Virus record (IMG/VR): IMGVR_UViG_3300034084_000080
Location: 6,631-70,630 of that record
Strand: one strand, 5' to 3'
DNA: 64,000 nt
DNA from: a virus
Lineage: Duplodnaviria; Caudoviricetes
Shown: positions 11,673-11,722 of the stretch, in pieces
How the letters are laid out: each line of letters starts with the position of its first letter
Numbering within the stretch: position 1 is the stretch's first letter
Notes under the pieces: generated by a model
The model's database searches: none
Told to the model about the DNA's origin: nothing
The model's input: the letters and a program-made list of their open reading frames with translations, nothing else
Translations under genes and position numbers: made by a program

Positions 11673-11722
11673 GGTTAAGACGCTTCACAGCGTTTCGGGT
11701 ATTCAACCCTCATCAGTTAACC
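11673..11722 (-). ncRNA. Hammerhead ribozyme, type I
   Basis: GGUUAA-CUGAUGA-GGGU(UGAAU)ACCC-GAA-ACGCU(GUGA)AGCGU-C^UUAACC: full catalytic core, three paired stems, GUC cleavage triplet. Confidence 0.92.

What the first reader, a model, noticed from the sequence alone, without database searches (positions are those of the whole stretch)
11673..11722. Type I hammerhead ribozyme encoded by the end of a protein gene
Seen on (-): complete core CUGAUGA...GAAA, a 6-bp stem I, 4-bp stem II and 5-bp stem III, with GUC cleavage predicted between 11679 and 11678. The core also encodes the last residues (RLTDEG*) of ORF 11703-11975. Cleavage would leave a 19-nt 5'-OH leader on the next gene (ATG 11659) and release the sub-transcript carrying the PcfK(AcrIIA9-like)/PcfJ genes. 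Hammerheads in phage intergenic regions are known; their function is unresolved.
Basis: partly seen in the sequence, partly recalled or inferred. Interest (0 to 1): 0.78.

Follow-up and report, generated by a model that had tools for sequence, protein, structure and literature searches.

The report
Phage hammerhead ribozyme at a gene junction
A real self-cutting hammerhead RNA sits between two small genes of an uncultured temperate phage, where it most likely cuts the long early message into separate pieces; phages are already known to do this, so it is a sound new example and not a new kind of thing.

Summary
On the (-) strand, 11722-11673 forms a complete type I hammerhead: a 6-bp stem I, the CUGAUGA core, a 4-bp stem II with a 5-nt loop, GAAA, and a 5-bp stem III with a GUGA loop. 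It would cut after GUC, between 11679 and 11678. It overlaps the last 20 nt of ORF 11703-11975 (...RLTDEG*) and lies 19 nt before ATG 11659.

It is not a chance match. A pattern covering only the core and stem II found 83 viral contigs. 78 of the 85 matches (including the window's own site) are complete hammerheads with the same layout. Stems I, II and III all covary. A covariance model built without the window sequence scores it 71 bits (E about 9e-15).

The subfamily has a fixed geometry and nearly invariant unpaired bases. It usually holds the upstream gene's stop codon and precedes the next start codon by 19-28 nt. In other phages it often forms arrays, one per small gene. Rfam's hammerhead models miss it completely. 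Unannotated members occur in cultured Flavobacterium and Pelagibacter phages.

The same operon carries a second hammerhead (type III), which this scan had already noted and followed up. Hammerheads flanking genes in phages and prophages were described in 2011, and their function is still unresolved. Verdict: a genuine new member of a known kind, of moderate interest.

The parts
11673..11722 (-). Complete type I hammerhead ribozyme; predicted cleavage after C17, between 11679 and 11678
   Evidence: R1 71.6 bits; independent model R2 71.0 bits, E 8.8e-15
11717..11722 (-). Stem I 5' strand GGUUAA; pairs with 11678-11673
   Evidence: all six stem I pairs show changes on both sides in the family
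11710..11716 (-). Core C3-A9, CUGAUGA
   Evidence: across 105 family copies N7 is U in 90, A in 9 and C in 6, and the other core bases are fixed by the descriptor
11697..11709 (-). Stem-loop II, GGGU-UGAAU-ACCC (13 nt); loop II holds the upstream ORF's stop codon UGA at 11705-11703
   Evidence: the 13-nt length holds in 105 of 110 family copies; loop consensus is U-N-A-W-U
11680..11696 (-). G12 A13 A14, then the stem III hairpin (A15.1-U16.1 plus 4 bp, GUGA tetraloop)
   Evidence: stem III varies in sequence and length across the family but stays paired
11673..11678 (-). Stem I 3' strand UUAACC; becomes the 5'-OH end of the downstream RNA after cleavage
11723..11723 (-). Unpaired A just 5' of stem I, nearly invariant in the family
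   Evidence: A in 104 of 105 copies
11671..11672 (-). Unpaired AA just 3' of stem I, nearly invariant; a candidate tertiary-contact partner for loop II
   Evidence: A in 98 and 94 of 105 copies; the contact itself is inferred
11711..11727 (-). Competing hairpin UAUCAG/CUGAUG, which ties up core bases C3-G8 in this copy
   Evidence: alt-pair probability up to 0.96, against 0.04 for stem I; not conserved in the family
11703..11975 (-). Upstream ORF (90 aa); its last 20 nt (codons LTDEG and the stop, plus 2 nt of the R codon) lie inside the ribozyme
   Evidence: one distant homologue P0002 (33% identity, same MTLTEYLNQE start), aligned through ...FHIRL
11660..11678 (-). 19-nt A-rich leader with no SD site that cleavage would leave on the downstream gene
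   Evidence: predicted unstructured; family spacing peaks at 19-28 nt
11471..11659 (-). Downstream ORF (62 aa, no homologue found); its end overlaps the start of the next ORF (11172-11474)
9477..11166 (-). PcfK-like (10768-11166) and PcfJ-like (9477-10763) genes on the downstream fragment
   Evidence: Pfam E 1.7e-36 and 3.8e-30
9467..9488 (-). Terminator-like hairpin with a T8 tail just after PcfJ; the likely 3' end of the downstream fragment
   Evidence: consensus scan only
14738..14796 (-). Second hammerhead in the same operon: type III with an extra U between A9 and G10.1, cutting at 14789/14788, about 30 nt before the ATG at 14708
   Evidence: read by eye; earlier finding e1-5911817; weak R1 hit at 14708-14781

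Best explanation
This is a genuine cis-acting type I hammerhead ribozyme. It is transcribed as part of the (-) strand operon of small early/accessory genes of a temperate phage whose host is probably in the Bacteroidota. Once stem I forms, the RNA cuts itself after C17 (11679/11678). The upstream product keeps the whole 90-aa ORF plus a 24-nt tail holding the stem II and stem III hairpins, and ends in a 2',3'-cyclic phosphate. The downstream product starts with a 5'-OH on a 19-nt unstructured, A-rich leader without an SD site. It carries the 62-aa and 100-aa ORFs, PcfK and PcfJ, up to the terminator-like site at 9488-9467. The cut uncouples the two halves of the operon, so they can differ in stability and translation. 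Shown here: the sequence and structure, family membership, covariation, the conserved placement and the gene context. Inferred: that it cuts in vivo, where the transcript begins and ends, and what the cut does to expression.
For: The consensus core and three helices are perfect. This is the only such site in the window and in the 70.6-kb provirus. Chance expectation is 0.02 loose hits per window and 0 of 400 at this quality. Independent model R2 gives 71.0 bits, E 8.8e-15. Of 85 matches to a pattern covering only the core and stem II (84 in IMG/VR plus the window's own site), 78 are complete type I hammerheads. 99.1% of cells are paired, against 21-45% when partners are slid, and all six stem I pairs change on both sides. 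Stem II covaries once it is left unconstrained. Geometry is fixed: stem I is 6 bp in 105 of 110 copies and stem-loop II is 13 nt in 105 of 110. No contig has copies on both strands. Cleavage-to-start spacing peaks at 19-28 nt. The stop codon lies inside the ribozyme or touches its first base in most copies. Other contigs hold same-strand arrays of 6-10 copies. Flanking genes are diverse small proteins, some of them anti-restriction types. A second hammerhead lies upstream in the same operon. In published work, prophage hammerheads flanking genes cleave in vitro and in vivo, and polycistronic mRNA processing was proposed (PMC3088659; PMC6765202).
Against: No cleavage data exist for this copy. 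In a nearest-neighbour model of this copy a 6-bp competing hairpin is favoured: the hammerhead fold is -15.3 kcal/mol against an MFE of -17.4, and P(stem I) is 0.03 against a family median of 0.62. Rfam hammerhead models give no score. The promoter is not located, and terminator-like hairpins at 13894-13873 and 12388-12370 lie upstream on the same strand, so the extent of the transcript is uncertain. The effect on stability or translation is untested in any phage.
Confidence: 0.75

Rival explanations
1. The motif belongs to the family by descent but is slow or inactive in this phage. Upstream coding sequence (UAUCAG) pairs with the core (CUGAUG) and traps the RNA in a non-catalytic fold.
For: The MFE and centroid structures contain the competing hairpin, with pair probabilities up to 0.96 against 0.04 for stem I. 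The hairpin can form as soon as the core is transcribed, before the 3' strand of stem I exists. Only one other of 63 family copies has a competitor this long.
Against: The core and all three helices are intact and nothing looks degenerate. Energy models ignore the hammerhead's tertiary stabilisation. About a dozen other family members also have a predicted P(stem I) below 0.15, so the prediction discriminates poorly. Ribosomes finishing the upstream ORF would melt the competing hairpin (inference).
Confidence: 0.12
2. The main purpose of the cut is to switch on translation of the next gene, not to alter mRNA stability. It would create a free 5'-OH end at a set distance from the start codon in a host that does not use Shine-Dalgarno pairing. 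Ribozyme folding would also be gated by ribosomes terminating on the stop codon inside it.
For: Cleavage-to-start spacing is tightly peaked at 19-28 nt. Type I topology leaves only 6 nt of ribozyme on the downstream RNA. This phage's genes lack SD sites and have A-rich leaders with a purine at -3. The stop codon lies inside the ribozyme in about half of the copies that have an upstream ORF. Self-cleavage of a type I hammerhead is required for translation initiation in a chrysovirus 5' UTR (PMC13725137).
Against: The published precedent is eukaryotic. Some family members have clear SD sites, for example L061 and L080. The Pelagibacter phage copy is followed by no gene for about 400 nt. The ribozyme contains stop codons in two frames always and in the third often, so an ORF ending inside it may be a simple by-product of tight packing.
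Confidence: 0.2
3. The two hammerheads (type III at 14789, type I at 11679) work as a pair that excises a 3.1-kb RNA. That RNA could be ligated into a circle or could mark a mobile gene cassette.
For: Two same-strand ribozymes bracket 14788-11679. Perreault et al. raised splicing or circularisation as a possibility for clustered prophage hammerheads.
Against: Those authors looked for such products and found none (PMC3088659). A terminator-like hairpin (13894-13873) and a (+) strand ORF (13599-13865) lie between the two ribozymes. No repeats or mobility genes mark the block's ends. The family occurs as singles as well as arrays.
Confidence: 0.04
4. It is a chance match to the hammerhead consensus inside coding or intergenic sequence, with no function.
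For: Loose hammerhead-like hits arise at about 0.02 per 64-kb window, so a scan of about 250,000 windows will meet chance hits. No Rfam model supports it.
Against: An independent family model gives E 8.8e-15. The copy shares features that the search pattern did not ask for: a 6-bp stem I, A at -1, AA at +1/+2, the U-N-A-W-U loop, and the spacing to the start codon.
Confidence: 0.01

Closest known systems
Hammerhead ribozymes flanking genes in prophages and phages (Perreault et al. 2011, PMC3088659)
   Same: Both have the consensus core, lie on the same strand as the genes at gene junctions of phage operons, and have variable neighbouring genes that include anti-restriction functions. Both often occur as several copies per operon. 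The proposed role, processing of polycistronic mRNA, is the same.
   Different: This copy and its subfamily have a very fixed layout: a 6-bp stem I, a 13-nt stem-loop II and invariant flanking A residues. I could not find that layout in the part of the paper's supplement that is held as text. The published tested examples come from Clostridium, Azorhizobium and Agrobacterium prophages, not Bacteroidota-type phages.
Rfam Hammerhead_1 (RF00163) and the other Rfam hammerhead models
   Same: Same ribozyme class by core sequence and three-way junction.
   Different: No Rfam hammerhead model reports this copy even at E<=10 on 70 nt, nor the 13 sister copies in 12 loci at the gathering score. Annotation pipelines that rely on Rfam will not see the subfamily.
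Halovirus HF1/HF2 hammerhead variant upstream of the early helicase gene (discussed in PMC3088659)
   Same: A phage hammerhead just upstream of the start codon of an early gene in a polycistronic transcript. The mapped 5' end of that transcript falls within 3 nt of the ribozyme cleavage site.
   Different: That one is a core variant in an archaeal virus and heads the transcript. This one has a consensus core and lies between two genes.
Type I hammerheads in 5' UTRs of chrysoviruses and fusariviruses (PMC13725137)
   Same: Type I topology, position upstream of an ORF, and an experimentally shown link between self-cleavage and translation initiation.
   Different: Those are eukaryotic RNA viruses using cap-independent translation and have different helix II designs. 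No evidence yet shows that bacterial ribosomes use ribozyme-made 5'-OH ends in this way.
Twister, pistol, hatchet and twister-sister ribozymes in the same kind of phage gene neighbourhoods (PMC6765202)
   Same: They occupy similar positions among small phage genes. A twister-P3 lies 1.6 kb from a subfamily hammerhead in locus L035.
   Different: The folds are unrelated. None is detected in this window.

Membership tests
Hammerhead ribozyme | Conserved core C3 U4 G5 A6 N7 G8 A9 ... G12 A13 A14 | tested here: met
   CUGAUGA at 11716-11710 and GAA at 11696-11694
Hammerhead ribozyme | Three helices around the core, closed by G10.1-C11.1 and A15.1-U16.1 | tested here: met
   Stem I 6 bp, stem II 4 bp starting G-C, stem III 5 bp starting A-U
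Hammerhead ribozyme | Cleavage-site nucleotide H17 (not G) after U16.1 | tested here: met
   GUC, with C17 at 11679. In the family, H17 is C in 81 copies and A in 24, never U. G was excluded by the descriptor itself, so its absence is not a result.
Hammerhead ribozyme | Helices supported by compensatory changes in related sequences | tested here: met
   99.1% of cells paired, 8 pairs with double changes, 0 of 500 shuffles as good; stem II covaries when left unconstrained
Hammerhead ribozyme | Tertiary contact between stem I and loop II, which allows activity at cellular Mg2+ | tested here: inconclusive
   Nearly invariant unpaired bases are in the right places: A at -1, AA at +1/+2, loop II U-N-A-W-U, and fixed helix lengths. 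No structure or covariation proves a contact.
Hammerhead ribozyme | Mg-dependent self-cleavage giving 2',3'-cyclic phosphate and 5'-OH ends | not testable with these tools
   Needs in vitro transcription or end-specific RNA sequencing
Hammerhead ribozyme, type I topology | Stem I open; stems II and III closed by loops | tested here: met
   Loops UGAAU and GUGA close stems II and III, and the 5' and 3' ends leave through stem I
Rfam hammerhead families (RF00163 and relatives) | Score at or above the family's gathering threshold | tested here: not met
   No hammerhead model is reported at gathering or at E<=10. Sister copies are missed too, which points to a model limitation.
Phage/prophage gene-flanking hammerheads (Perreault 2011) | Located in a phage or prophage, on the coding strand, at a junction between genes | tested here: met
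   IMG/VR provirus record of 70,630 bp, 97% complete; flanked by (-) strand ORFs 11703-11975 and 11471-11659
Phage/prophage gene-flanking hammerheads (Perreault 2011) | Often several ribozymes bracketing genes or gene blocks | tested here: met
   A type III hammerhead lies at 14796-14738 on the same strand; arrays of 6-10 occur in sister contigs

The most novel reading that the evidence does not exclude
This fixed-geometry subfamily, which Rfam cannot see, may be a dedicated cistron separator whose action is coupled to translation. The upstream gene's stop codon lies inside the ribozyme, so a terminating ribosome must leave before the ribozyme can fold. The cut then creates a 5'-OH leader of a set length (19-28 nt) that favours ribosome loading on the next gene, which would matter most in hosts that do not use Shine-Dalgarno pairing. 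That would give phage hammerheads a defined job: setting the relative output of neighbouring small early genes.
Probability: 0.15. Interest if true: 0.7.

Novelty: new member of a known kind. Interest (0 to 1): 0.36.

Why it matters
What self-cleaving ribozymes do in phage and bacterial DNA genomes is still an open question (PMC6765202). This copy alone adds one more example. Three things found while checking it are more useful. First, a large and very uniform type I subfamily is invisible to Rfam, so it goes unannotated. Second, its placement rules are quantitative: the stop codon lies inside or just before the ribozyme, and the next start codon follows 19-28 nt after the cut. Third, single copies occur in cultured Flavobacterium and Pelagibacter phages, where the function could be tested by mutation. 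In this phage the cut would separate a block of unknown small genes from a block holding a PcfK-domain gene (the domain found in AcrIIA9) and its PcfJ partner. That fits the reported tendency of such ribozymes to sit near anti-defence genes.

Tried and rejected
- Rfam cmscan on the whole window, on 301 nt and on 70 nt gave no hammerhead hit. I treat this as a library gap, because the 13 sister copies in 12 loci were missed too.
- blastn of 900 nt around the site against GenBank phages found nothing.
- The 90-aa upstream protein has no relatives in IMG/VR by the search for related loci. In the large protein set it has one distant homologue, whose locus L109 has no ribozyme.
- PcfK relatives: 24 viral loci, none with a hammerhead by descriptor or by model. 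I rejected a PcfK-ribozyme link.
- PcfJ found no relative in named genomes, so there is no direct host assignment.
- I considered whether the competing hairpin is a conserved riboswitch-like alternative and rejected it. It is 2-3 bp in most copies and 6 bp only here and in L013.
- The Bacteroidota -7 box TAnnTTTG is not enriched: 56 found against 82 expected. Promoter assignment therefore stays open.
- No mutual information appears between loop II and the flanks, because those positions are nearly invariant, so no pseudoknot can be shown.
- I searched the Perreault 2011 supplement text for this stem II and found none, but the held text may be incomplete.
- The weak model hit at 17282-17326 (+) has only 16 nt between CUGAUGA and the 3' strand, so it cannot be a hammerhead.

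Full report
**1. Observation.**
Read on the (-) strand, 11722-11673 is GGUUAA / CUGAUGA / GGGU-UGAAU-ACCC / GAAA / CGCU-GUGA-AGCG / UC / UUAACC. That is a complete hammerhead with the consensus core. It has a 6-bp stem I, a 4-bp stem II that starts with G10.1-C11.1, and a 5-bp stem III that starts with A15.1-U16.1 and is capped by a GUGA tetraloop. C17 is at 11679. Stem I is open, so the topology is type I. ORF 11703-11975 ends ...R L T D E G stop, with its UGA (11705-11703) in loop II. The next ORF starts at ATG 11659, 19 nt after the predicted cut.

**2. More than chance.**
- A descriptor asking for CUGANGA, stem II, GAA, an A-U-closed stem III, H17 and stem I finds only this site on both strands of the window.
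- In 400 dinucleotide shuffles of the window, loose versions (4/3/3 bp) appear 0.02 times per window. Versions of this quality (6/4/5 bp) never appear.
- A scan of about 250,000 windows would still meet some chance hits, so I looked for conservation.

**3. A large family.**
- The pattern CTGATGAGGG-N7-CCCGAAAC constrains only the core and stem II. It matches 83 IMG/VR contigs, where about 2 are expected from base counts alone (the expectation is my own estimate).
- 78 of the 85 matches, counting the window's own site, are complete type I hammerheads with the same layout, giving 64 unique sequences.
- Stems I and III were not part of the pattern, yet they are paired throughout with many compensatory changes. 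On alignment A1, 99.1% of cells are paired, against 21-45% when partners are slid. All six stem I pairs change on both sides, and no shuffle out of 500 does as well.
- With stem II left free, 110 unique copies are found in the same loci, and stem II covaries too.
- Model R2 was built from 43 copies, excluding the window and most copies that share its stem I. It scores the window copy 71.0 bits, E 8.8e-15.
- The chance explanation is therefore excluded.

**4. Anatomy of the subfamily.**
- Stem I is exactly 6 bp in 105 of 110 copies, and stem-loop II is exactly 13 nt in 105 of 110.
- Unpaired positions are nearly invariant: A just before stem I (104 of 105), AA just after it (98 and 94 of 105), and loop II U-N-A-W-U.
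- Core position N7 varies (U, A or C), as the hammerhead consensus allows. H17 is C or A.
- Fixed helix lengths with invariant unpaired bases at the far end of stem I and in loop II are what one expects if these make the loop-helix contact that natural hammerheads need at cellular Mg2+. This is an inference, not something shown here.

**5. Placement rules.**
- No contig carries copies on both strands.
- The upstream ORF's stop codon lies on the UAA of stem I in 29 copies, on the UGA of the core in 13, in loop II in 8 (including the window's own site; the window is not in the set and was counted), and at the first base of the ribozyme or just before it in about 20. The overlap with a gene end is therefore typical of the family.
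- The ribozyme carries stop codons in two frames always and in the third frame often, so tight packing alone may explain this.
- The next start codon follows the cut by 19-28 nt in most copies.
- Flanking genes are small (medians of 91 and 69 aa), diverse and mostly of unknown function. A few are ArdC-type, DUF932 or WYL-like.
- Several contigs carry arrays: 9-10 copies in L082, 8 each in L016 and L061, and 6-7 in L080 spaced about 300-400 nt apart, which is one per small gene.
- A twister-P3 ribozyme lies 1.6 kb from a hammerhead in L035.

**6. This phage.**
- The window is part of a 70,630-bp IMG/VR provirus record, 97% complete, with a single copy of this subfamily.
- The ribozyme lies in a run of tightly packed (-) strand ORFs from about 14988 to 7947.
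- Downstream lie the 62-aa and 100-aa ORFs, PcfK (10768-11166) and PcfJ (9477-10763), followed by a hairpin plus T8 terminator-like site at 9488-9467. AcrIIA9 carries the PcfK domain (PMC6739104).
- Upstream on the same strand is a second hammerhead. It is type III with an extra U between A9 and G10.1 and cuts at 14789/14788.
- The two cuts would bracket 3.1 kb. However, terminator-like hairpins (13894-13873, 12388-12370) and a (+) strand ORF lie in between. The only exact Bacteroidota-type -7 boxes upstream on (-) are at 14940 and 14406. The extent of the transcript is therefore inferred.
- This phage's genes have no Shine-Dalgarno signal: 9% carry an SD-like motif against 7% background. Their leaders are A-rich with a purine at -3 in 87%. 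Together with PcfK/PcfJ this points to a Bacteroidota host, again by inference.

**7. Not tied to particular genes.**
- 24 viral loci encoding PcfK relatives (42-63% identity) have no hammerhead.
- The only homologue of the upstream 90-aa protein (33% identity) aligns through ...FHIRL. In its locus the next gene follows after 6 nt, with no ribozyme.
- The element therefore behaves as a portable junction module and not as a regulator of one gene family. Perreault et al. noted the same for prophage hammerheads.

**8. A caveat for this copy.**
The codons just upstream (UAUCAG) pair with CUGAUG of the core. In a nearest-neighbour model this hairpin wins: the MFE is -17.4 kcal/mol against -15.3 for the hammerhead fold, and P(stem I) is 0.03. 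The competing hairpin is 2-3 bp in most family members, and the family median P(stem I) is 0.62. It is therefore not a conserved switch, but it may slow this copy. The model ignores tertiary stabilisation and the effect of ribosomes.

**9. Databases and cultured phages.**
- Rfam reports no hammerhead model for this copy at any setting, and none for the 13 sister copies in 12 loci.
- Model R2 finds single, unannotated members in two cultured phages. One is Flavobacterium phage vB_FspP_elemoB_14-3B (NC_062741.1, 51.6 bits). The other is Pelagibacter phage Jormungand (MT375528.1, 48.6 bits), where it sits near ArdA and integrase genes.
- In elemoB the annotated gp69 start (a GTG) lies inside the ribozyme. 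An in-frame ATG lies 28 nt after the cut, which is the family-typical spacing.
- In Jormungand the ribozyme overlaps the end of gp49, and no gene follows closely.

**10. Mechanism.**
The best-supported reading is constitutive self-cleavage of the operon transcript at the gene junction. With type I topology, almost the whole ribozyme stays on the 3' end of the upstream RNA as two hairpins ending in a cyclic phosphate. The downstream RNA keeps only six ribozyme bases on an unstructured leader with a 5'-OH end. This matches the role proposed, and partly tested, for prophage hammerheads (PMC3088659; PMC6765202). A role in translation of the next gene is an attractive addition. The spacing rule supports it, and so does the recent finding that ribozyme cleavage enables translation in some RNA viruses (PMC13725137). 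It is untested in bacteria.

**11. Verdict.**
This is a genuine hammerhead and a new member of a known kind. Interest is moderate to low for the copy itself. The subfamily description, the Rfam blind spot and the cultured-phage examples raise it somewhat, because they would allow a direct functional test.

Noticed in passing
L082:5500-11000, L016:6200-11150, L061:11200-14500, L080:400-2250: Same-strand arrays of 6-10 hammerheads of this subfamily, roughly one per small gene and spaced 300-700 nt apart.
   Followed up: partly
L035:6669-6747: Rfam calls a type-P3 twister ribozyme (40.3 bits, just above gathering) 1.6 kb downstream of a subfamily hammerhead. Two ribozyme classes share one phage operon.
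   Followed up: no
L110:2992-3059 (NC_062741.1, about 17208-17275): An unannotated hammerhead in the cultured Flavobacterium phage elemoB. The annotated gp69 start (GTG, locus position 3035) lies inside stem III, and an in-frame ATG at 3077 is 28 nt after the predicted cut, so the annotated start is probably wrong.
   Followed up: partly
L111:2992-3062 (MT375528.1, 38214-38284): An unannotated hammerhead (GUA cleavage site) overlaps the end of gp49 in Pelagibacter phage Jormungand. It lies downstream of two ArdA-annotated genes and upstream of MarR and integrase genes.
   Followed up: partly
window 14738-14796 (-): A type III hammerhead with an extra U between A9 and G10.1, cutting at 14789/14788, about 30 nt before the ATG at 14708. 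A TAcgTTTG box at 14940-14933 lies upstream.
   Followed up: partly
window, all ORFs of 120 aa or more: Start regions lack Shine-Dalgarno motifs (9% against 7% background). They are A-rich and G-poor, with a purine at -3 in 87% and A peaks at -6 and -13. This is a Bacteroidota-like initiation signature.
   Followed up: partly
window 12283-12414 (-): A 43-aa hydrophobic ORF contains a strong GC hairpin (12388-12370) that the scan scores as terminator-like. Whether it acts as a terminator or is only coding sequence is unclear.
   Followed up: no
window 17282-17326 (+): A hairpin whose 5' strand is followed by CUGAUGA gives a weak model hit (16.5 bits, E 0.2). The 16-nt interior is too short for a hammerhead.
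   Followed up: partly
L037:13172-13286 (-): A strong Rfam match to the Betaproteobacteria-1 sRNA (88.9 bits) in a viral contig that also carries three hammerheads.
   Followed up: no
window 53053-53126 (+): The only Rfam gathering-level hit in the window is a tRNA gene (66.5 bits), with CAU at the anticodon position.
   Followed up: no
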